A stretch of DNA of 64,000 nucleotides, from NCBI GenBank assembly GCA_963712115.1, contig CAVQGX010000030.1, positions 1 through 64,000 of the forward strand. Reading direction: 5' to 3'. Position numbers and translations under genes: made by a program. The stretch comes from an uncultured delta proteobacterium. GTDB lineage: Bacteria; Desulfobacterota; Syntrophobacteria; BM002. How positions within the stretch are numbered: the first letter of the stretch is position 1; the number at the start of each line of letters is the position of its first letter. The notes below the pieces were generated by a model. The model was given only the letters and a program-made list of their open reading frames with translations, had not been told where the DNA came from and did not search any database. Below are positions 2,937-61,744 of this stretch, piece after piece.

Positions 2937-3851
2937 TTACGGCCAGGTGCTAATATAACGCTCTCCCGTGCTCGGGAGCAGAACTACGATAGTCTTACCT
3001 TTGTTTTCTTCTCGCCTGGCTGCTTGCAAGGCAGCCCAAGTGGCTGCGCCGCTTGAAATTCCGGCCAAGATGCCTTCTTCCCTTGCCAATCTTGCAGCCA
3101 TTTCTTCAGCAAGGTCAGCATTGACCTGGATTATCTCGTCGATTAGATCTACTCGGAGTACCGCCGGCACAAAGCCGGCACCTATGCCTTGAATCCTGTG
3201 CGGACCGGGTTGCCCTCCAGAGAGAACCGGTGATTCAGACGGTTCAACTGCAATGGCTTTGAAAGAAGGCTTTTTGGCTTTGATCACCTCGGCCACGCCG
3301 GTGATGGTCCCCCCGGTACCAACCCCTGACACGAATAGGTCAACCTCGCCGTCGGTGTCGTTCCAAATCTCCAGTGCGGTGGTCTCCCGATGGATGGCAG
3401 GGTTGGCTGGATTGGAAAATTGGTCTGGCATAAAGGCATGGGGAGTTAGGGCTGCCAGTTCCTCAGCTCTGTTGATCGCACCCTTGATGCCTTCACTTCC
3501 AGGGGTAAGCACCAGTTCCGCCCCCAATCTCGTTAGTAATTTGCGCCTCTCGATGGTCATGGTCTCCGGCATGGTGAGAATTAGCCGATAGCCCTTGCTG
3601 GCAGCAATCATTGCCAGGGCGATGCCTGTATTGCCACTGGTGGGTTCTATGATCACGCTCTCAGGTTTCAGCTTGCCCTGGAGCTCTGCAGCCTCAATCA
3701 TGCTCCGTCCGATACGGTCTTTGACGCTGCCCAATGGGTTGAAAAACTCCAACTTTGCCAAAATCTTTGTGCCTAATCCCTTGGCGATATTTTTGAGCTG
3801 AACCAGGGGGGTGAGACCAATGGTATGACCGATATCAGTATTGATTTTCAT
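2937..3851 (-). CDS. cysK: Cysteine synthase A
   Basis: [14 protein letters not shown] (PLP Lys), [28 protein letters not shown]. Confidence 0.95.
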
Positions 3852-3857
3852 TGACCT

Positions 3858-4844
3858 TTACCTCTCATTGGCTCCAGAGTCTGCATTCTTATAAATCAGC
3901 TTAGGCGGGGCCAGAAAAACTTTGGTTCCTGAGGGAACTGAAGAGGTAATCCAGACACTGCCGCCTATTACAGAGCCTGCCCCGATTACTGTCTCCCCCC
4001 CTAGTATGGTAGCACCGGCATAGATAGTAACATCGTCCTCTATGGTCGGATGCCTCTTTTCGTGCCGCAGTTGTTCCACCTCTTCCTTGGGCAAAGAGAG
4101 GGCGCCGAGGGTCACGCCTTGATAGATCCGCACACGTTTGCCTATTTCTGTGGTCTCACCGATGACAACCCCGGTGCCGTGGTCAATAAAAAAACTCTCA
4201 CCAATTGTTGCTCCCGGATGAATATCAATACCGGTGATGCTGTGCCCATGCTCTGACATCATTCTCGGCAAGAGAGGGATCTCCTGCAGCCAGAGTTGGT
4301 GAGCAATCCGGTGAATGGTTGTGGCCAGTAAGCCTGGGTAGCTTATTATCACTTCATCAATGGTCTTGGCGGCGGGATCACCATCGTAGGCAGCCTGCAC
4401 ATCGGTTGTCAGAATTCTTCTTATTTCCGGTAGATGCTCCAGAAAGCGGGCCGCTTCCCTTTGGCCTCGTTCTTGACAATGAGTGCACACCAACTGGTAT
4501 CGTTGGCAATCATGTCGAATACTCAAAGCGATTGCTTCAGAAAGGGTCTCGAAAAGCCTGGTAACCTCAACCCCAATGGCGTATTCCAACTGGTTAGCAT
4601 CCAATACCTGTCTGTTGAAGTAACCTGGGAATAGCAATCGTCTTGCTCGCTGAGTGATCTCGACGGTCAGTTCCGTGGATGGAATAAGTTCGGCGTCCAC
4701 GTGGGCGAATAGGTCAGGATCAAGGCTGGAAGCAACGACCTCCGAGATAATTGGTGGCAGCTGGTCACGAATTTTAGTACTAACCTCGAAGGCCAGGCGG
4801 CAGGCTTCGGTATCTTTATCGTGAGACTGTTGTACTGGACTCAT
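3858..4844 (-). CDS. cysE: Serine O-acetyltransferase (EpsC/CysE type)
   Basis: AAYDGDPAA, ISYPG, GIDIHPGATIG, FFIDHGTG, KRHPTI; start placed at ATG 4844 after GGAAGG. Confidence 0.92.
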   Translation of the reverse strand: MSPVQQSHDKDTEACRLAFEVSTKIRDQLPPIISEVVASSLDPDLFAHVDAELIPSTELTVEITQRARRLLFPGYFNRQVLDANQLEYAIGVEVTRLFETLSEAIALSIRHDCQRYQLVCTHCQERGQREAARFLEHLPEIRRILTTDVQAAYDGDPAAKTIDEVIISYPGLLATTIHRIAHQLWLQEIPLLPRMMSEHGHSITGIDIHPGATIGESFFIDHGTGVVIGETTEIGKRVRIYQGVTLGALSLPKEEVEQLRHEKRHPTIEDDVTIYAGATILGGETVIGAGSVIGGSVWITSSVPSGTKVFLAPPKLIYKNADSGANER

Positions 4845-4949
4845 AATCTTCCTTCCCAAGGCACGTACGTCTAGGCCTAAAAACTTTGAAGCTGGTGTAG
4901 TCCTGGTTGCTTAATTGAGGTAAGGTGGCGGGAACCCGTTGCGTGGCGA

Positions 4950-54015: not shown

Positions 54016-54275
54016 CTCCTTCCGCCTTGGCATTAAACTTGGTGAACCACAATAAGTATAGTGTTTTTACTGGCCTTTGTTCAAGCCAAAAGCACAAAGT
54101 TGAAGCTTCCACACCCAGAGGACCTGGCATTGAGTTGGCCTCGGCAGAAGTTTGTGAGGCAGCCACACCGCTTGCTGCAGAAGTAAGTGATGGAGTGACA
54201 GTAATTGCAGAGTTGCAGATTGCAGATTTTAGATTTAAGATTAGTGATTGTGAATATAGATTGAGGAGACAAGCG

Positions 54276-55787
54276 ATGCGAGCTAGTGATTTCCCAGCTG
54301 ATATTCAGCCCCATCTTATTCCTCTTCCTTCAGGTGATCTCGTCTATCGTTGCCTAAAGTGCGAGGAAATCTTTACCATTGAGTCGCTACTCTATACCTG
54401 CCCTGAGTGCAAGAGCATTCTCTTGATTGAAGATCGTCAATGGGAACGGTTGAAAGAGTTCAGCGGATCATTCTGGCGGCGTCTGTTTGACTACCGTAAG
54501 ATGCTCAACCACCCTGCCTTGAAGGGAATTTTCCTTTTCTACGAGATAATTGCCCCAGTGATACCGTTGGAGGACATTATTTACTTGGGTGAGGGTCATA
54601 CCCCGGTAGTTCGGGCGAACGATGGACTGCGAGATTGGGTAGGAGTCGATTTCTACTTCAAAAATGACGGGCAAAACCCGAGCGCTTCTTTTAAAGACAG
54701 AGGCATGGCATGTGCCTTGAGCTATTTGAATTATATTGTCCGCAGTCAAAACTTGACAGAAGTGCTGTCCATATGTGCCTCCACTGGAGATACTTCAGCA
54801 GCCGCAGCTCTCTACTCTGCCTACATGAGCAAAAAGGTTAAATCGGCGGTCCTCTTGCCTCACAAAAAGGTAACGCCCCAACAAATCTCTCAGCCTCTGG
54901 GAAGCGGTGCTCGGGTCTTCGAGATCCCCGGGGTATTTGACGACTGCATGAAGGTAGTAGAGCATCTTGCTGATAATTACCATGTGGCACTGCTCAATTC
55001 AAAGAACGCCTGGCGCATCCAAGGGCAAGAGTCCTACTCCTTTGAAGTAGCTCAGGGCTTTGACTATGACCTGGCAAACAAGGTGGTTATAGTGCCCATC
55101 GGGAATGCTGGTAATATTACCGCGGTTATGGGGGGTTTTCTGAAGCTCCTCGACCTTGGAGTGATAGATACTCTGCCCAAGATTATTGGCGTCCAGTCGG
55201 AGCATGCCGATCCAGTCTATAGGTACTATCGAGAATCCGACCCAAGTAAAAGGATATTTCGTCCTGTGACTGTCAGACCCAGTGTGGCCCAAGCAGCCAT
55301 GATAGGTAATCCCGTTTCCATGCCCAGGGTAATACGTTTGGTTGAAGCTTACGAAAAGGTTCCAGGCAGTCCCGGGGTCTTTGTAGTGCAGGTAGGTGAA
55401 CAGGAGATTATGGACTGCCAACTAATTGCCAACCGAAATGGCCATATCGCTTGTACTCAAGGGGGAGAATGTTTGGCTGGTTTGCTTAGGGCCCGACAAG
55501 AAGGGATTGTATCAGAAGGAGAGGTTGCGGTGCTTGATGCTACCGCTCACGCTCTCAAATTTGCCGGCTTCCAAGAAAACTATTTTGGCGACAAGTTGGA
55601 CGCAGCCTATGAAATTGTGCCGAAAGATGAATTGAGGAATTTCCCCACTCTGATTGAAGCTCCGGGAGTGAAAAGAATGCCCGCACCGGGGAAACCCTTA
55701 CCTGAAAATGAGTTTCAGAATTTCGTGGAGGCAACCGCCAGTGAAATTGCCCGAGAACTTGACCTGAAAGCGAAAGGGTCGGGATAG
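54276..55787 (+). CDS. thrC: Threonine synthase
   Basis: LGEGHTP, NPSASFKDRG, CASTGDTS, NSKNAWR, VPIGNAGN, TAHALKF. Confidence 0.92.
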   Translation: MRASDFPADIQPHLIPLPSGDLVYRCLKCEEIFTIESLLYTCPECKSILLIEDRQWERLKEFSGSFWRRLFDYRKMLNHPALKGIFLFYEIIAPVIPLEDIIYLGEGHTPVVRANDGLRDWVGVDFYFKNDGQNPSASFKDRGMACALSYLNYIVRSQNLTEVLSICASTGDTSAAAALYSAYMSKKVKSAVLLPHKKVTPQQISQPLGSGARVFEIPGVFDDCMKVVEHLADNYHVALLNSKNAWRIQGQESYSFEVAQGFDYDLANKVVIVPIGNAGNITAVMGGFLKLLDLGVIDTLPKIIGVQSEHADPVYRYYRESDPSKRIFRPVTVRPSVAQAAMIGNPVSMPRVIRLVEAYEKVPGSPGVFVVQVGEQEIMDCQLIANRNGHIACTQGGECLAGLLRARQEGIVSEGEVAVLDATAHALKFAGFQENYFGDKLDAAYEIVPKDELRNFPTLIEAPGVKRMPAPGKPLPENEFQNFVEATASEIARELDLKAKGSG

Positions 55788-56097
55788 TCGATGAATCTTT
55801 CATACAAAGCATGGAGCATAGGGCATAGAGCATAGGGCATAGAGCATAGAGTAAGGAGCCAGAAGTCGGAGGTCAGAGATCGGAGGACAGACGACAGACG
55901 ACGGATGCATTCAAGTTCAAGGTTCAAAGTTCCAAGTCCAGAGCTAAGAATGAACGGTTTCCACTGCTCACGGCTTACCGCTTACTTTAGGTTTTAACGG
56001 TTTAAACGATTTGAACGGCTTGAAAGAGTTGACTTTACGCTGTGCGTTTGGCGTTCTGCGCTCTGCGGCAGACTCTTTTTGCACTTTGTGGTAAAAA

Positions 56098-56388
56098 TCA
56101 CCCCTCGACGCTCTGAGACAAGTTGCCTAGGCTTCGGCAGGTTTTTTCCAGAGTTGCAGATGGATTGAGGTAATATTGCCGCATTTGATTGGCATCGAGT
56201 GCCTCGAATATTATGCGATGGCGGTCAAGTTCCTCCAAAGCGCTGACTAGCGACTCGGGTCTGTCATTCCAAAATGTTCCCGCCGACTCAATAGTAATCG
56301 GCGTACCACTTTCGGCAAGATTGCAGATTAGTATATAGGCCGAAGTGGCTTCCACAGACAAATTCAAACTAAAAATCTTCCGATCCAT
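56098..56388 (-). CDS. Conserved hypothetical protein
   Basis: IFSLNLSVEATSAYILIC..WN..ALEEL; AAGGAG RBS. Confidence 0.6.
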   Translation of the reverse strand: MDRKIFSLNLSVEATSAYILICNLAESGTPITIESAGTFWNDRPESLVSALEELDRHRIIFEALDANQMRQYYLNPSATLEKTCRSLGNLSQSVEG

Positions 56389-56463
56389 GACCTTAGATCT
56401 CCTTGTTCTCTAGCGGGTAGCAGGGGCTATAATAATATCTTATGAAGCACAAGGAAAGACTTC

Positions 56464-56783
56464 GAGCCCGGATATTTCATGAATTCACGCCCTGGCGTGA
56501 CTGCGACCACGGATATGGCCGTCCTTCCTGGCGTCCTCGGGTGTCAGCCCCTGCGACGTACCGTTCAGGTACGCCTCGGCTTCGATCTTGGATTTCGGAT
56601 TTCGGATCTCGGGTTTTTGACTACAATTGATGATAATGAACTCAACAGTTCAGGTTTTGCCATTTGTTCTCTGGTTCTCACAAAATTTTCAGCAAATTTT
56701 CAATCCGCATTCCGCAATGGTCGACCCGGTGGCACGCCCATCTTCGTGGTCTCGCGACAGCAATTCATATAATATCCGGACTA
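56464..56783. mobile_element. MITE-like element family A, copy 4, with a nested ~140-bp heptamer-flanked insert
   Basis: Same TIRs and core; insert GGATTTCGGATTTCG...CAATCCGCATTCCGC at about 56580-56722. Confidence 0.8.
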
Positions 56784-57006
56784 GACGATTAAATGTTGAA
56801 CACTCTGGATCTTTCACCGTTTTTTGCATAGGTCAGTCCACCCCAAAAGAGGGTATGTCACTAAAAATGGCGCTAATATGATTACATTTTTGTAGTTGCA
56901 AGTGATTTTGTTATTGAGTATGTTTTTTTTGATTCAAACACCTTCACCTAATACTTTCGCAGGGTTTGTGGAGGACGGTGAAAGATATTTAGGACAGGAT
57001 AAAGCA

Positions 57007-59310
57007 ATGGCAAATGTCTATGATAACGTCCTAGAGCTAATCGGCAACACACCTTTGATTCGGGTAAACCGCCTCAATTCCAATGCAAAGGTGACCATTT
57101 ATGCCAAGCTGGAGTCTCGAAACCCCGGTGGTTCAGTTAAGGATCGCATTGCTCTTCAGATGGTCGAGCAGGCGGAGCTTAGAGGAGAGCTTACGCCGGA
57201 AAAGACGATAATCGAGGCCACCAGTGGAAATACTGGCATTGGTTTGGCCGTGGTGGCCGCAGTGAAAGGATATCGCATTACCCTGGCCATGCCTGAGACT
57301 GCCAGTCAGGAGCGTCAGAAGATTCTCAAGGCACTTGGTGCCGAGATCTTACTTACCCCTGGGACCCTAGGAACGGACGGTGCAATCGAAAAGGTTTATG
57401 AGCTGGCACGCCAGTTTCCAGGTCGCTATTTCATGCCTGACCAGTTCAATAATGAAGACAACTGGAAGGCGCACTATTTCTCAACTGCCAAGGAAATCTG
57501 GGAACAGACTGAGGGTAAAGTTACTCATGTTATAGCAACTCTTGGCACTACCGGCACGGCTATCGGCATAACGAAACGCTTGAAAGAGTACGACCAGGAC
57601 ATCTGCGTTATTGCTGTGGAGCCCTATATGGGACACAAAATTCAAGGGCTCAAGAATATGAAAGAGTCATATGTTCCCGGGATTTTTGACAAAGAAATCT
57701 TGGATGAGATAGTTCATATTGAGGACGCCGAGGCTTTCGAAACAGCCAGGAGACTGGCCCGGGAAGAAGGCCTTTTTGTGGGAATGAGCGGTGGGGCTTC
57801 CATGGCGGCGGCCCTCCGCACTGCAAGCACCTTGGAAGGGGGATACATTGTGGCCATCCTCCCCGATGGTGGTGAACGTTATCTCAGCACGAACCTATTT
57901 ACCACTCTGTCGGAGCCGGATTTTCGCTTTTACAATACCTTCTCGCGTCAAAAAGAAGAATTCAAGCCGATCTCGGAAGGCAAAATCTCTCTTTTTACCA
58001 CCGGTCCAACGGTGGGGGAATCACTCGAGCTAACCGAGAGTCGCCGTTTGGTGGTGGCCGATCTCCTCCGGAGGTATTTGGAATATAAGGGTTTTGAGGT
58101 AAGCCAAGTGGTCAACATAACCGACATGGGAGAAAAAGCCATATTGGATTCTAGTTATGACTTAGATACTGACGCCGAGCGGTACATGGAGATCTGCCGG
58201 CGGGATACAGAAGTCTTGGGTGTACAACCGGCCACTTACTATCCCCGCACAAGCGAACACGTGGATGATATTCTGAACATTAGCAAGGCATTGATGGAAA
58301 AGGGTGTCGCCTACGAAAAACTCCGTTCGGTATATTTTGACATCTCCAAATTCGCTGACTACGGTAAACTATCTCGGGTGGATCTGCAAAAAATAAGGCT
58401 GGGTAAGACCGTTGACCTTGAAGCTTATGAGAAGGAGAACCCCCGTGATTTCACTCTCCTTAGACGGGCTACTCTGGCCGAGCTGAAACGGGGGATCTAT
58501 TTAAAAACCACCTGGGGAAACGTGCTGCCCTCCCTGCATCTCGAGACAGTAGCTCTAGCCACTAAACAATTGGGGGTGACCATAGACATTCATGTAAGCA
58601 GTTTAGACTTTTTATTTCCCCACAACGAAAACGAAATCGCCATCGCCCAAGCAGCTACGGGTAAACCTCTCGCCAACTACTACATTCATTGCGAGCGGGT
58701 GCTTATGGATGGCAAGAAGATGTCAAGGGAAGGTGAAGGTAGGGAGACGGTGCAGCAACTGCTAAATCGGGGCTACAGTGGCAGACAGATACGCTACTGG
58801 TTGTTGGCTACACATTATCGTAAGCCACTGCACTATGAAGAGGACAGATTAGAGGAAGTTGCACGGAGTCTGGAACGGTTGGATGAATTTATCCAAAGGT
58901 TGCACCATGTGGTTACAGGCAAGGCTGCTGAGGAGGTCAATCAGTTAATCTATGAAGTTGAGCAGAATTTTGACGAGGCAATGGGCGACGACCTGAACAT
59001 ATCATCAGCCCTTGCTGCTGTCTTCGGTTTTATCCGCAAACTCAATCCATACATTTCCGAGGGCAGTCTGAGCGAGGGCCAAAAGGAAGCGGCACTTGCG
59101 GTGATGGGACGACTGGATTCTGTACTGAATATTATTCACTGCCCTGAGGTTGATCTTGATGAGAAAACCTGTAGACTTCTGGAAGCCAGAGCTGAGGCCA
59201 GACGGAGTAAGCGGTGGGAAGAGGCTGACCGGATTCGCCAAGAACTTCTGGAGCTTGGTATCAGGGTTGTTGATACTCCGGAGGGCACTCGCTGGAAACG
59301 GGCGGACTAA
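57007..59310 (+). CDS. Cysteine synthase fused to a degenerate cysteinyl-tRNA synthetase
   Basis: N-terminal NPGGSVKDR, TSGNTG, KIQG, DGGERYLS; C-terminal YNTFSR, GPTV, NITD, YGKLS, FPHNENE, KMS, HYR, DDLN, ADRIR. Confidence 0.92.
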   Translation: MANVYDNVLELIGNTPLIRVNRLNSNAKVTIYAKLESRNPGGSVKDRIALQMVEQAELRGELTPEKTIIEATSGNTGIGLAVVAAVKGYRITLAMPETASQERQKILKALGAEILLTPGTLGTDGAIEKVYELARQFPGRYFMPDQFNNEDNWKAHYFSTAKEIWEQTEGKVTHVIATLGTTGTAIGITKRLKEYDQDICVIAVEPYMGHKIQGLKNMKESYVPGIFDKEILDEIVHIEDAEAFETARRLAREEGLFVGMSGGASMAAALRTASTLEGGYIVAILPDGGERYLSTNLFTTLSEPDFRFYNTFSRQKEEFKPISEGKISLFTTGPTVGESLELTESRRLVVADLLRRYLEYKGFEVSQVVNITDMGEKAILDSSYDLDTDAERYMEICRRDTEVLGVQPATYYPRTSEHVDDILNISKALMEKGVAYEKLRSVYFDISKFADYGKLSRVDLQKIRLGKTVDLEAYEKENPRDFTLLRRATLAELKRGIYLKTTWGNVLPSLHLETVALATKQLGVTIDIHVSSLDFLFPHNENEIAIAQAATGKPLANYYIHCERVLMDGKKMSREGEGRETVQQLLNRGYSGRQIRYWLLATHYRKPLHYEEDRLEEVARSLERLDEFIQRLHHVVTGKAAEEVNQLIYEVEQNFDEAMGDDLNISSALAAVFGFIRKLNPYISEGSLSEGQKEAALAVMGRLDSVLNIIHCPEVDLDEKTCRLLEARAEARRSKRWEEADRIRQELLELGIRVVDTPEGTRWKRAD

Positions 59311-59312
59311 TA

Positions 59313-60086
59313 TCATTTCCTTAGTTGGCGAATCTCAACATCCGATCCGTTACCTACCACCACAATACGAAGGGAAATGGCTTTTTGCTTCTGGGGATTG
59401 GCCAATCTGTGAACCTCCACCTGACTTTGATCCAAGTGACCTATCCTTTGCAATTCGCGGAGTAGATGGGAAAAACGTTGCCCTGGCACTTCGACATCGA
59501 TCAAACGAGCCGAACTGGAATTAAGGGGGCGAGTAGGCTCCCTTTCCTGTATCATTGAACCGGAGATAGAACGAAGCATAGATTCCAGCTCGCGATCAGC
59601 CCTAGAGAAATCTTTGACTCTGAGGACCATTACCGGGACAGGAGGTTGGCCCGCCCCACGTCTCGTTGTGAACTTGGCCGTTGGCTGACTAGCAGGTTCG
59701 CCTATAATCAAGTTATTATTTTGGTCTGATACAAGAGACCTGAGGGAAAAGGATGGCAGCAGAACCTGCCAGAGGGTAAGGGAGATGACTAATACTACCG
59801 CTGCACCCACCCCCAGTGGGAGCCACCTTGGGAGATAGGTGAAAGGCCAAATAAGCTTTCGCAGGCGACGTTCCTTCAACCTTGCCATTACTACTGCACT
59901 GAGATGTGCGGGAGGATGCAGATTTGGCAGTCGGCTCAAGATTTCCTTGGTTTTCTGCAGAGAGTTCCATTTGCGATAGCAAGACAAGCATTTCCGCAGA
60001 TGGAACTGCAGTGTTTCGCGCTCCTCCAGAGAAAGCTCGCCGTCCAGATAATCATTGAACTGTGATACGTACTTACGGCACTCCAT
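59313..60086 (-). CDS. zf-HC2 anti-sigma factor
   Basis: YLDGEL..HLRKCLSC; one TM helix. Confidence 0.88.
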   Translation of the reverse strand: MECRKYVSQFNDYLDGELSLEERETLQFHLRKCLSCYRKWNSLQKTKEILSRLPNLHPPAHLSAVVMARLKERRLRKLIWPFTYLPRWLPLGVGAAVVLVISLTLWQVLLPSFSLRSLVSDQNNNLIIGEPASQPTAKFTTRRGAGQPPVPVMVLRVKDFSRADRELESMLRSISGSMIQEREPTRPLNSSSARLIDVEVPGQRFSHLLRELQRIGHLDQSQVEVHRLANPQKQKAISLRIVVVGNGSDVEIRQLRK

Positions 60087-60089
60087 GGG

Positions 60090-60713
60090 CTACTCTAGTT
60101 TATCTGCCAAACATTGCTGCAAAGTGGCTCTAGCGCGATGTAGTCGCGATTTCACTGTGCCCGGGTTAAGGGAGAGCATTTCACCCAACTCCTCGTAGGA
60201 AAAACCCTGCACATCTCTCAACACCAATATCTTCCTTGCCTGGGGAGCCATCTGATTAAGGCATTGCTGCACCTGGGTGGCCATGCTTTTCGTCAATGTC
60301 CACTGCTCCGGTGTTGGAGCGCTGTCAGCCAGGAACTCTGGGTTTTCCCAGGGGCTTTCTTCTCTGTACTGTGTTCGCCTGCTCTGCTTGGCAAAAAAGT
60401 CTCTTCTCGATAAGTATTTTATACGATTGCGTGTTTGATTTAGAGCGATCCGATAGAGCCAGGTAGAAAACTTGGACTCGCCGCGAAATCTCCGGATGCC
60501 CCTGAAAGCAGCCACGAAGATATCCTGAGTCAAATCCTCAGCCTCTTCCTCGTTTCCTAACATGCGATAAGTGAAATTGTAGATCTGTTTTTCATGTAGT
60601 CTCATTAGCTGAGCAAAAGAATCTCGGTCTCCTTGTCGACAACGATCAACGAGAAGTTGTTCCTCCTCACGCTTAACAGATCTACTTTGTTGAGCCAAAG
60701 GTCTCGTTCCCAT
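60090..60713 (-). CDS. rpoE: ECF sigma factor (RpoE-like)
   Basis: AEDLTQDIF, FRGESKFSTWLYRIA, GFSYEE, GTVKSRLHRAR. Confidence 0.9.
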   Translation of the reverse strand: MGTRPLAQQSRSVKREEEQLLVDRCRQGDRDSFAQLMRLHEKQIYNFTYRMLGNEEEAEDLTQDIFVAAFRGIRRFRGESKFSTWLYRIALNQTRNRIKYLSRRDFFAKQSRRTQYREESPWENPEFLADSAPTPEQWTLTKSMATQVQQCLNQMAPQARKILVLRDVQGFSYEELGEMLSLNPGTVKSRLHRARATLQQCLADKLE

Positions 60714-61108: not shown

Positions 61109-61744
61109 TTAAAAGTCAGAAAGGGGCATCTTGGCCAAAGGTTTGAGGTAGGAGGTGTCGTTAAGGAAGGCAATGATCCATTGCCCGTCCCTGTAAATGA
61201 ACAGATTGGTGCTAGCGGTGTCCTGTTGAATGCGCCAGAAGTGACTGTTGTCCAAGCCCAGCATAGCGCAACAGATTACTTTGTTCGGAACCCGGTGGGC
61301 AACCAGGACAAAATTCTCATTTTTATGTTTAGCCAGAAGATCTTCCAAACCCTTCATAGTGCGGGATCGGACCTCATCAAGGCTCTCACCTCCAGGAAAC
61401 TTGATTTTGTGAGGTTCGCGCTGCCACAAAGCGTGGAGTTCTGGATACTTTTTCTTGACCTCTTGGTTTTCCAGTCCCTCCCATTCTCCGTAACTTATAT
61501 CGATTATGGCATCAAAGGGTGTAACCGGGATGTTATGAAACTTCGCTATGTTCTCAGCTGTTTCTATGGATCTGGAAAGGGGGCTGCTGTACACAGCATG
61601 GAGGGTCTCATCTTTGAGTGCTTCACCCGCCAGGTGCACTTCTTGTTTTCCCGTCTCATCTAAGGGGATATCCGCCCGTCCTCGAAAGATTTCACCCACG
61701 TTCCAAGCAGTCTGGCCATGGCGCACCAGGTAGACTTTGGACAC
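61109..61744 (-). CDS. Histidine phosphatase (CobC/PspA/GpmB-like)
   Basis: LVRHGQTAWN, YSSPLSR, YGEWEG, PGGES, VAH. Confidence 0.9.
   Translation of the reverse strand: MSKVYLVRHGQTAWNVGEIFRGRADIPLDETGKQEVHLAGEALKDETLHAVYSSPLSRSIETAENIAKFHNIPVTPFDAIIDISYGEWEGLENQEVKKKYPELHALWQREPHKIKFPGGESLDEVRSRTMKGLEDLLAKHKNENFVLVAHRVPNKVICCAMLGLDNSHFWRIQQDTASTNLFIYRDGQWIIAFLNDTSYLKPLAKMPLSDF

What the first reader, a model, noticed from the sequence alone, without database searches (positions are those of the whole stretch)
57007..59310. Cysteine synthase fused to a pseudo-CysRS that keeps its tRNA-binding end
Seen: the CysK half has intact PLP motifs. In the CysRS half CGPTVY..HIGN reads TGPTVG..ELTE, GRPGWHIEC reads VLPSLHLET, DFALWK reads DFTLLR, DIHGGG reads DIHVSS and KMSKS reads KMSRE. 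The anticodon domain (R..AR..K.WEEADRIR..L...G..V.DT..GT.W) is conserved. Known: the two lost Cys are zinc ligands, and HIGH/KMSKS bind ATP. A normal cysK already exists at 2937. Inference: it cannot activate cysteine and may instead be a tRNA(Cys)-gated cysteine synthase, a channelling scaffold, or an enzyme acting on aminoacyl-tRNA. I recall such fusions being annotated in Desulfobacterota but know no function for them.
Basis: partly seen in the sequence, partly recalled or inferred. Interest (0 to 1): 0.82.

Follow-up and report, generated by a model that had tools for sequence, protein, structure and literature searches.

The report
Cysteine synthase fused to dead CysRS
A cysteine-making enzyme is joined to a disabled copy of the enzyme that loads cysteine onto its tRNA, and because the disabled half still looks able to grip that tRNA, it may tie cysteine production to demand.

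Summary
Window 57007-59310 (+) encodes one 767-aa protein. Residues 9-298 are an intact CysM-type cysteine synthase. Residues 307-765 are a CysRS paralogue that has lost HIGH (ELTE), two of four zinc ligands (C28T, C209T in E. coli numbering), W205 and KMSKS (KMSRE).

A canonical cysS lies about 108 kb downstream on the same contig. The dead half is not decaying: dN/dS is 0.14 against the closest relative, and its amino-acid divergence is about that of the CysM half.

The fusion is a large family, found in at least 150 of 401 sampled genomes of the phylum. Across the family the ATP/cysteine site erodes repeatedly. All 15 canonical-invariant positions from E. coli residue 290 to the C-terminus, anticodon-binding domain included, are kept, and the CP domain carries a new, nearly invariant motif (YEKxNPRDFTLL).

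In 26 of 41 fusion-bearing genomes examined (including the window's own), the fusion is the only CysK/M homologue and cysE is absent.

Best reading (inferred, untested): a CysE-independent cysteine synthase whose pseudo-CysRS module binds tRNA(Cys) and gates synthesis. My searches found no paper on it.

The parts
57007..59310 (+). Whole gene: 767-aa CysM-like / pseudo-CysRS fusion, plus stop codon
   Evidence: The 22 aligned homologues begin at the aligned position.
57031..57900 (+). CysM-type cysteine synthase domain (aa 9-298). PLP lysine K45 is at 57139-57141. Asn loop T72-G77, glycine loop G180-T184 and S261 are present.
   Evidence: TIGR01136 scores 386.2 bits against a cut-off of 344.15. 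Best PDB hits are Salmonella and E. coli CysM, with K216 aligned to CysM R210. The motifs are invariant in the family.
57901..57924 (+). Short inter-domain linker (aa 299-306)
   Evidence: pLDDT is below 50 at residues 294-302. This is the boundary between the family matches.
57925..59301 (+). CysRS-like half (aa 307-765), full length: Rossmann, CP, SC fold, helical bundle and anticodon-binding domain
   Evidence: TIGR00435 scores 339.4 bits against a cut-off of 340. It aligns end to end with CysRS structures 8qhp, 3tqo and 1li5.
58000..58038 (+). Degenerate first signature: T332 (E. coli C28, a zinc ligand) through E341-L-T-E344 (in place of HIGH/HIGN)
58426..58467 (+). Family-specific CP-domain motif Y474-EKENPRDFTLLR-R487 (canonical K.NP.DFALWK)
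   Evidence: It is invariant or nearly invariant in the family. It is retained even in the hyper-degenerate members. pLDDT is below 50 at 464-488.
58522..58548 (+). V506-LPSLHLE-T514 in place of GRPGWHIEC: W205->L and C209->T lost; H206 kept
58585..58635 (+). D527-IHVSS ... F537-PHNENE543: GG->SS and H235->N. D222, H224, D229, and zinc ligands H234 and E238 are kept.
58717..58731 (+). K571-MSRE in place of KMSKS (K269->R, S270->E)
58966..59130 (+). DALR_2 helical domain (aa 654-708)
   Evidence: F342, D349, A355 and N367 (E. coli numbering) are kept.
59152..59295 (+). CysS_C anticodon-binding domain (aa 716-763), with R728, R732, W737, D741, R744, G751, D756, G760
   Evidence: Pfam PF23493. 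All 7 canonical-invariant positions of this domain are kept in the family. They are nearly all kept in hyper-degenerate members.
2937..3851 (-). Context: stand-alone canonical cysK (304 aa)
3858..4859 (-). Context: cysE-like serine acetyltransferase gene next to cysK

Best explanation
The gene encodes a two-module protein.

Module 1 is an active CysM-type, PLP-dependent cysteine synthase. In most genomes that carry the fusion it is the only such enzyme and there is no serine acetyltransferase. It is therefore probably the housekeeping, CysE-independent route. By inference its substrates are O-phosphoserine and sulfide.

Module 2 descends from a CysRS and can no longer activate cysteine. The ATP signatures and the zinc/thiol pocket are gone in this clade. 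The module is nevertheless held under strong purifying selection. It keeps the whole tRNA-body and anticodon-binding apparatus, and it has acquired a new, nearly invariant surface in the CP (acceptor-end) domain.

Most likely mechanism (inferred, not shown): module 2 binds tRNA(Cys) through its GCA anticodon and acceptor end. It reports the tRNA's availability or charging state to the fused synthase, so cysteine is made in step with demand. This would replace the CysE feedback control that these organisms lack. The logic resembles the HisRS-like domain of GCN2 or HisZ-HisG.

Confidence by layer:
- Architecture, loss of aminoacylation capacity and selection: about 0.9.
- tRNA(Cys) binding retained: about 0.65.
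- Regulatory gating as the purpose: about 0.35-0.4. The overall figure refers to this last layer.
For: Shown:
- Intact CysM motifs, with TIGR01136 above its cut-off.
- HIGH, C28, W205, C209, H235 and K269 lost.
- Canonical cysS elsewhere in this genome, and in 5 of 5 complete fusion-bearing genomes checked.
- dN/dS of the CysRS-like half is 0.136 against a 98%-identical relative. Against nine relatives at 80-85% identity, pN is 0.083-0.096, versus 0.071-0.082 for the CysM half.
- 118 of the 120 best database hits carry both domains.
- Full-length fusions occur in at least 150 of 401 sampled genomes of the phylum.
- Of 92 positions that are at least 85% conserved in 56 canonical CysRSs, all 15 from E. 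coli residue 290 to the C-terminus are kept in 41 family members. These include R423, R427, D436, R439, G446, D451 and G455 of the anticodon-binding domain. Only 41 of 77 in residues 1-273 are kept.
- Even three hyper-degenerate fusions that have lost H206, H224 and K266 keep R423, R/K427, D436, R/K439, G446 and D451, and the CP motif.
- The zinc cysteines and KMSKS are lost in several separate branches.
- The fusion is the sole CysK/M match with no cysE in 22 of 35 and in 4 of 5 further fusion-bearing genomes. In the 13 of those 35 with a second CysK, cysE is also present. Where I compared coordinates, cysE lies beside that second cysK (G264; several of the 13).
- SepRS is absent in the window's genome and in 5 of 5 complete fusion-only genomes.
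- Contigs from four metatranscriptome runs of three studies cover the gene at 95% identity or more.

From papers (passages read):
- M. tuberculosis CysM prefers O-phosphoserine (PMC9547175).
- Anticodon recognition in E. coli CysRS is allosterically coupled to the active site about 70 A away, on a G29-R427 pathway (bioRxiv 10.1101/2025.02.14.638259). Both residues are kept here.
Against: - No binding or activity was measured. That R423, R427, D436, R439 and D451 contact the anticodon rests on the Pfam domain name and my recollection of the 1U0B complex, not on a call.
- No conserved neighbour gene, riboswitch or T-box points to regulation.
- The AF2 model leaves the inter-domain geometry open (pTM 0.58).
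- The two-halves complex job gave only weak support.
- The window's own genome also has cysE-cysK, so here the fusion is not the only route.
- O-phosphoserine use is inferred only from the absence of cysE. K216 at the CysM R210 position does not discriminate between substrates.
- Genome tallies come from hand-picked, high-quality and phylogenetically related genomes, so they are not independent samples.
- RNA-library contigs cannot exclude contaminating DNA.
Confidence: 0.4

Rival explanations
1. tRNA-borne chemistry. The pseudo-CysRS holds tRNA(Cys) so that the CysM site acts on, or uses as nucleophile, an amino acid esterified to its 3' end. This would be a new tRNA-dependent route, or a modification of Cys-tRNA(Cys).
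For: The anticodon domain and a remodelled acceptor-end (CP) domain are the most persistently conserved parts. There is precedent for aaRS homologues that use aminoacyl-tRNA as a donor (SbzA, in the review PMC9437257). The linker is short, about 8 residues.
Against: The Asn loop TSGNTG is invariant. From established CysK/CysM enzymology, recalled rather than tested here, this loop clamps the free alpha-carboxylate of the substrate, which argues for a free amino-acid first substrate. No SepRS is present to make Sep-tRNA. Only one ordinary tRNA-Cys(GCA) was found in the genome.
Confidence: 0.1
2. tRNA(Cys) holder without allostery. The dead half sequesters, protects or hands over tRNA(Cys) or Cys-tRNA(Cys), localising cysteine synthesis next to translation (a channelling scaffold with the real CysRS).
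For: The same conservation of tRNA-binding parts. A separate fusion of CysK to a fully canonical CysRS exists (P0125), which shows that physically coupling the two steps is selected elsewhere.
Against: A pseudo-CysRS that occupies the anticodon and acceptor end would compete with the real CysRS rather than feed it. No contact with CysRS was tested.
Confidence: 0.1
3. Structural appendage only. The CysRS-like half is kept for folding, solubility or oligomerisation of the synthase and binds no RNA.
For: Purifying selection alone does not prove RNA binding. The complex job gave weak support for an interface between the halves: 0.38 against a best control of 0.02.
Against: A scaffold role would not require exactly the canonical anticodon-domain residues to stay fixed while the catalytic residues drift. 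Apparently stand-alone forms of the same family exist (P0137, P0140, P0144, P0156).
Confidence: 0.1
4. Cysteine (product) sensor of the HisZ type. The old amino-acid pocket binds free cysteine and feedback-inhibits the fused synthase.
For: 24 of the 44 family sequences in the tree keep both zinc cysteines, and W205 is kept in 78% of the 41 sequences compared. H206, H224 and H234 are kept throughout. The organisms lack the usual CysE feedback point.
Against: Both zinc cysteines and W205 are lost in this protein and its clade, and independently in other branches, with no relaxation of selection. This reading also does not explain the conserved anticodon domain.
Confidence: 0.07
5. Cysteine persulfide synthase. 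The CysRS-like half makes CysSSH from the cysteine supplied by the CysM half, as reported for E. coli CysRS and CARS2.
For: The reported persulfide activity does not need C28 or C209 (PMC10655014, passages). A sulfidic lifestyle would make this chemistry relevant.
Against: The reported activity depends on the KIIK and KMSK lysines. In the family K73 is kept in only 46%, position 76 is not lysine, and K269 is R in 56%. This protein reads KAIL and KMSR.
Confidence: 0.05
6. It is still a working, if unusual, CysRS, making a true bifunctional enzyme.
For: TIGR00435 scores 339-341 bits, at the cut-off. Sources name relatives 'cysteine--tRNA ligase'.
Against: HIGH, two zinc ligands, W205 and the catalytic KMSKS lysine are all replaced. 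A canonical cysS is always present beside it.
Confidence: 0.02

Closest known systems
CysM (O-acetylserine/O-phosphoserine sulfhydrylase B), e.g. E. coli/Salmonella CysM (2v03, 2jc3) and M. tuberculosis CysM
   Same: The fold and all PLP and substrate motifs match. It has the short CysM-type loop rather than the CysK insertion. K216 sits at the CysM R210 position. Like M. tuberculosis CysM, it probably works without CysE.
   Different: It carries a 460-residue pseudo-CysRS at its C-terminus. It scores below the cysM equivalog cut-off (375.1 against 394.2). No CysO/Mec partners were seen nearby.
Canonical bacterial CysRS (E. coli 1li5/1u0b; the genome's own cysS)
   Same: The domain order matches from end to end. 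The SC fold, helical bundle and anticodon-binding domain keep every canonical-invariant residue.
   Different: HIGH, KMSKS, C28, C209 and W205 are lost. The CP domain is remodelled (R168T, W184L, plus about 20 family-specific fixed residues).
Known CysRS paralogues: MshC (mycothiol ligase) and CysRS* (Desulfobacterales, charges SelC* tRNA)
   Same: They are CysRS-derived proteins with a non-standard role. CysRS* also occurs in Desulfobacterales (PMC9437257).
   Different: Both of those are active ATP-dependent ligases. CysRS* lacks the anticodon-binding domain according to the passages read. That MshC also lacks it is my recollection, not a call result. This protein is the reverse: the ligase site is dead and the anticodon domain is kept. 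MshC model: 142.5 bits against a cut-off of 485.1.
Regulatory pseudo-synthetases: HisZ (with HisG) and the HisRS-like domain of GCN2
   Same: A catalytically dead aaRS paralogue is coupled to an enzyme of the cognate amino acid's economy. GCN2 senses uncharged tRNA and HisZ senses the amino acid (recalled knowledge; analogy only).
   Different: There is no sequence relationship (those are class II HisRS). The coupling here is a covalent fusion to the biosynthetic enzyme itself. The function is untested.
SepRS/SepCysS tRNA-dependent cysteine synthesis
   Same: It links O-phosphoserine, sulfur and tRNA(Cys).
   Different: SepRS is absent. SepCysS belongs to a different PLP fold type (recalled). 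Here the Asn loop implies a free amino-acid substrate.

Membership tests
Cysteine synthase CysK/CysM (TIGR01136 cysKM) | Family model above its curated cut-off | tested here: met
   386.2 bits against 344.15. 389.5 bits in the genome search.
Cysteine synthase CysK/CysM (TIGR01136 cysKM) | Schiff-base lysine, Asn substrate loop, glycine phosphate loop and active-site serine | tested here: met
   K45 in SVKDR, T72SGNTG77, G180TTGT184 and M260SGG are present and invariant in 22 of 22 aligned family members.
CysM subtype (TIGR01138 equivalog) | Equivalog cut-off and the short CysM-type loop | tested here: inconclusive
   375.1 bits against a cut-off of 394.2. The best PDB hits are CysM, and the loop lacks the CysK insertion.
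Cysteine--tRNA ligase (TIGR00435 cysS) | HIGH/HIGN and KMSKS ATP signatures | tested here: not met
   The motifs read ELTE and KMSRE.
Cysteine--tRNA ligase (TIGR00435 cysS) | Zinc site C28, C209, H234, E238 and W205 for the cysteine thiolate | tested here: not met
   C28->T332, C209->T514, W205->L510. H234 and E238 are kept. The ligand identities are recalled and agree with PMC10655014 for the two cysteines.
Cysteine--tRNA ligase (TIGR00435 cysS) | Anticodon-binding domain (PF23493) with its conserved residues | tested here: met
   PF23493 scores 37.3 bits against 23. 7 of 7 canonical-invariant positions are kept.
Cysteine--tRNA ligase (TIGR00435 cysS) | Aminoacylation of tRNA(Cys) | not testable with these tools
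   Needs ATP-PPi exchange and charging assays.
MshC (TIGR03447) | Family model above cut-off; active ligase motifs | tested here: not met
   142.5 bits against 485.1. The ATP motifs are lost.
CysRS* (Mukai et al. 2017, as described in PMC9437257) | No anticodon-binding domain; active ligase; coupled to selC*/selB* | tested here: not met
   The anticodon domain is present and the motifs are dead. Only one ordinary tRNA-Cys was found and no second Cys- or Sec-type tRNA.
CysM-fused 'FTLL' pseudo-CysRS family (defined here) | N-terminal CysM; RR after the HIGH position; YEKxNPRDFTLL[KR]; IHxS[GS]; canonical anticodon domain | tested here: met
   All features are present in P0001. They are shared by members at 47-95% identity and by representatives. 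The family lies apart from the canonical CysRSs in the tree.

The most novel reading that the evidence does not exclude
The pseudo-CysRS positions the 3' end of tRNA(Cys), charged or not, at the CysM active site. The PLP enzyme then carries out chemistry on or with a tRNA-bound substrate. That would be a SepRS-independent, tRNA-dependent step in cysteine (or cysteine-derivative) metabolism, performed by a fold-type II PLP enzyme.
Probability: 0.1. Interest if true: 0.95.

Novelty: new variant of a known kind. Interest (0 to 1): 0.74.

Why it matters
- Possible new control principle. If the pseudo-CysRS senses tRNA(Cys), this would be a bacterial enzyme whose output of an amino acid is set directly by the cognate tRNA. 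So far that principle is known from GCN2 (kinase signalling) and T-box RNAs (transcription), not from a biosynthetic enzyme itself.
- Missing cysE. It would explain how many sulfate-reducing and related Desulfobacterota make and control cysteine without serine acetyltransferase.
- Annotation. Relatives are labelled 'cysteine--tRNA ligase' or 'cysteinyl-tRNA synthetase', which is wrong for this clade and can hide the true cysS.
- Evolution of a dead synthetase. The family shows a graded series from intact zinc site and KMSRS to complete erosion. That series indicates which parts of a synthetase are needed once catalysis is abandoned.

Tried and rejected
- Operon context. ORFs of 20 related loci plus the window were clustered. 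Only a Desulfobacterales-local synteny appeared (tmk upstream, an unknown 323-aa gene downstream). Nothing was shared with the window.
- Apparent 'split' forms in L076, L086 and L061 turned out to be CBS or CysK pairs and are irrelevant.
- Leader RNA. No Rfam match was found at E up to 1 in 55700-57100. The promoter and terminator scans were no better than shuffles.
- SepRS route: absent.
- Special tRNA partner: only one tRNA-Cys(GCA) was found.
- Two-halves complex. The verdict was weak support. The score was 0.38 against a best control of 0.02. That mark was reached by 58 of 80 solved complexes and 2 of 110 mismatched pairs, but at 0.60 or under by only 7 of those 80 and by both passing mismatches. 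The runs agree in at least 90% of contacts and the partner pLDDT is at least 81. No interface was given, so it does not locate the CP motif at the interface.
- AF2 monomer. pTM is 0.58, so I did not interpret the domain orientation.
- RNA runs. Only assembled contigs were available, so transcription start, strand and level cannot be read.
- Literature. Searches found no paper on a CysK/CysM-CysRS fusion. PMC8762117 has 0 occurrences of CysK, CysM or 'cysteine synthase'. Supplements were closed and were not seen, and subscription journals are not in the library.
- Tree. The treekit maximum-likelihood run timed out. I replaced it with FastTree LG+gamma, midpoint-rooted, on 99 rows. Sequences under 400 aa were dropped and no support values were inspected.
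- Domain boundaries are recalled, and the two sequence sets differ in diversity. Only within-set rankings are meaningful.
Full report
1. WHAT IS THERE

Window 57007-59310 (+) is one open frame. The longest ORF starts at a TTG at 56896, and the ATG at 57007 gives 767 aa. The 22 aligned homologues begin at the aligned position.

Pfam finds PALP (9-287), the CysRS catalytic domain (319-618), DALR_2 (654-708) and the CysRS anticodon-binding domain CysS_C (716-763). NCBIfam places the N-half above the cysKM cut-off (386.2 against 344.15). It places the C-half exactly at the cysS cut-off (339.4 against 340). The MshC model is far below its cut-off.

The N-half aligns best to enterobacterial CysM and has every PLP and substrate motif.
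- C28->T, HIGH->ELTE
- W205->L, C209->T
- GG->SS, H235->N
- KMSKS->KMSRE
- H206, H224, H234 and E238 are kept.

2. IT IS NOT THE CELL'S CysRS, AND IT IS NOT DECAYING

A canonical cysS (576 bits; HVGH, GRPGWHIEC and KMSKS intact) lies on the same contig at 166913-168376. Five of five complete genomes that carry the fusion also carry a higher-scoring stand-alone cysS.

Against a 98%-identical metagenomic relative, dN/dS is 0.07 for the CysM half and 0.136 for the CysRS-like half. Against nine relatives at 80-85% identity, synonymous sites are saturated. Non-synonymous divergence of the dead half is 0.083-0.096, about that of the CysM half (0.071-0.082). The old catalytic body (0.066-0.079) is more constrained than the C-terminal third (0.12-0.147).

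3. A LARGE FAMILY WITH A CHARACTERISTIC PATTERN

Distribution:
- Of the 120 best hits among 4648, 118 carry both domains, at 47-95% identity.
- Named genome records place fusions in Desulfobacterales, Desulfobulbus, Desulforapulum autotrophicum, Desulfatibacillum, Caldimicrobium, Desulfovibrionaceae and others.
- In an even sample of 401 genomes of the phylum, the 150 listed places are full-length (or contig-truncated) fusions in 150 different genomes. About ten more genomes have best E-values between 1e-127 and 1e-215.

Signature. The family shares RR after the HIGH position, YEKxNPRDFTLL[KR] in the CP domain, IHxS[GS] and often KMSRS. Many true CysRSs read HIGN, so that single change is not diagnostic.

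Tree. I used FastTree on 99 sequences with a midpoint root, and did not inspect support values. The family lies apart from the canonical CysRSs. Members lacking the zinc cysteines sit in several separate branches, which implies repeated loss. One fusion with fully canonical motifs (P0125) nests among true CysRSs and is probably an independent, genuinely bifunctional fusion.

4. WHAT IS KEPT AND WHAT IS LET GO

I used E. coli cysS as a ruler and took 92 positions that are at least 85% conserved in 56 canonical CysRSs. These were compared with 41 family members:
- All 15 positions from residue 290 to the C-terminus are kept. They are R290, H297, Y298 and R299; F342, D349, A355 and N367; and R423, R427, D436, R439, G446, D451 and G455.
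- Only 41 of 77 positions in residues 1-273 are kept.
- The relaxed positions are the ATP and cysteine pocket: C28, Y33, H37, G39, K73, W184, G201, G204, W205, C209, G226, G227, H235, Q241, M267, K269, S270 and N273.

About 25 positions are fixed only in the family. Nearly all lie in the CP domain (E. coli 136-200), which is the best-conserved region of the family.

Three hyper-degenerate fusions (P0126, P0128, P0129) have lost even H206, H224 and K266. They still keep R423, R/K427, D436, R/K439, G446 and D451, and the CP motif.

The simplest reading is that the family's function needs tRNA(Cys) anticodon and body binding and a new CP surface, but not amino-acid activation. That the named residues contact the anticodon is my recollection plus the Pfam domain name, not a tool result.

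5. THE CysM HALF IS USUALLY THE ONLY CYSTEINE SYNTHASE

The window's genome also has a cysE-cysK pair at 2937-4859 (-), with a second copy on contig 65.

I hand-picked 35 high-quality fusion-bearing genomes. In 22 of them the fusion is the only CysK/M match (E at most 1e-30), and exactly those 22 lack cysE (E at most 1e-20). The other 13 have both a second CysK and cysE; where I compared coordinates, the two genes lie side by side. Among five complete genomes the figure is 4 of 5. Of 35 fusion-lacking genomes, 27 have cysE.

SepRS is absent from the window's genome and from five of five complete fusion-only genomes.

I infer that the fused CysM is a CysE-independent, probably O-phosphoserine-using synthase. 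The precedent is M. tuberculosis CysM (PMC9547175, passages). These genomes are relatives and hand-picked, so the counts are descriptive.

6. MECHANISM

Shown:
- An intact synthase module.
- A ligase-dead but selected CysRS module with an intact anticodon domain.
- A canonical CysRS elsewhere.
- Frequent absence of CysE.

Inferred: organisms without CysE lack the usual feedback point. The committed step is then the synthase itself, in a cytoplasm where sulfide is not limiting. A module that reads tRNA(Cys) supply or charging and gates the synthase would fill that gap. CysRS already has long-range coupling between anticodon binding (R427) and the active site (G29) (bioRxiv 10.1101/2025.02.14.638259, passages), and both residues are kept here.

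I put about 0.65 on retained tRNA(Cys) binding and 0.35-0.4 on regulatory gating. The rivals are chemistry on a tRNA-bound substrate, a holder or channelling role, a purely structural role, a cysteine sensor, a persulfide synthase and residual ligase activity. They are weighed in their own sections of this report.

7. SUPPORTING AND NEUTRAL DATA

- AF2 gives mean pLDDT 81 and pTM 0.58. The linker (294-302) and the invariant CP motif region (464-488) have low confidence.
- The two-halves complex job gave weak support only: 0.38 against a best control of 0.02, with the calibration counts given under Tried and rejected.
- Contigs from four metatranscriptome runs of three studies cover the gene at 95% identity or more. 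This is compatible with expression but is not proof.
- No riboswitch or T-box lies upstream.
- The upstream spacer is occupied by a multicopy MITE-like repeat.

8. COMPARISON AND NOVELTY

The 2022 review of duplicated synthetases lists only CysRS* and MshC as CysRS paralogues (PMC9437257, passages). The review of prokaryotic cysteine-encoding systems does not mention CysK or CysM (PMC8762117). Six full-text searches found nothing on this fusion. Supplements and subscription journals were not visible.

The sequences are abundant in databases under misleading names. I class the finding as a new variant of a known kind: a non-translational aaRS paralogue. Its function is untested but can be directly tested.

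Noticed in passing
window 56462-56785: A MITE-like repeat with 24-nt terminal inverted repeats (83% complementary) fills the spacer upstream of the gene. BLASTN of 56440-56820 gives 242 HSPs across the genome's contigs, as long (about 320 nt) and short (two-arm) forms. RNA-library contigs pile up on its arms (depth 200-1000, against 5-15 on the gene), with many variable joints. The small ORFs at 56479-56881 are probably artefacts of this element.
   Followed up: partly
window 54027-55787 (+): A threonine-synthase-family gene (TIGR00260, 173.6 bits against a cut-off of 167.1) has an N-terminal CxxC...CxxC zinc-ribbon-like extension. It lies 1.2 kb upstream on the same strand. It was not among the gene clusters shared by 3 or more of the 20 related loci compared.
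   Followed up: partly
window 59313-60713 (-): An ECF sigma factor and an anti-sigma factor carrying an HxxxCxxC (ZAS-type) motif, with weak similarity to RsrA. They are convergent with the fusion: the stop codons are 2 nt apart. This pairing is not among the gene clusters shared by 3 or more of the 20 related loci compared.
   Followed up: no
G000:C65:11198-12661 versus window 2946-4409: The cysE-cysK pair occurs twice with virtually identical scores (430.6/430.4 and 162.4/162.4 bits). This is either a real duplication or an assembly or binning duplicate (contamination estimate 5.99%).
   Followed up: no
P0125, P0247, P0138, P0155 (representative library): Other fusions of cysteine-pathway enzymes exist. 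P0125 is CysK plus a fully canonical CysRS. P0247 is a hexapeptide (SAT-like) N-terminus plus a canonical CysRS. P0138 and P0155 are PALP-PALP-serine acetyltransferase.
   Followed up: partly
P0126, P0128, P0129, P0131: These are hyper-degenerate fusions. Their CysRS catalytic core is almost unrecognisable (PF01406 scores 63 bits in P0129 and is undetected in P0131), yet the three that I aligned (P0126, P0128, P0129) keep the anticodon-domain residues. P0131's C-terminal half was not examined.
   Followed up: partly
G002, G018, G027, G046, G060, G222, G331, G355: Eight of 35 fusion-lacking genomes of the phylum also lack a cysE match at E of 1e-20 or better. Their route to cysteine was not examined.
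   Followed up: no
window 61109-61744 (-): A histidine-phosphatase-family gene whose best hit is phosphoserine phosphatase PspA (177 bits against a cut-off of 350). This could be relevant to O-phosphoserine supply, but the score is well below the cut-off.
   Followed up: no
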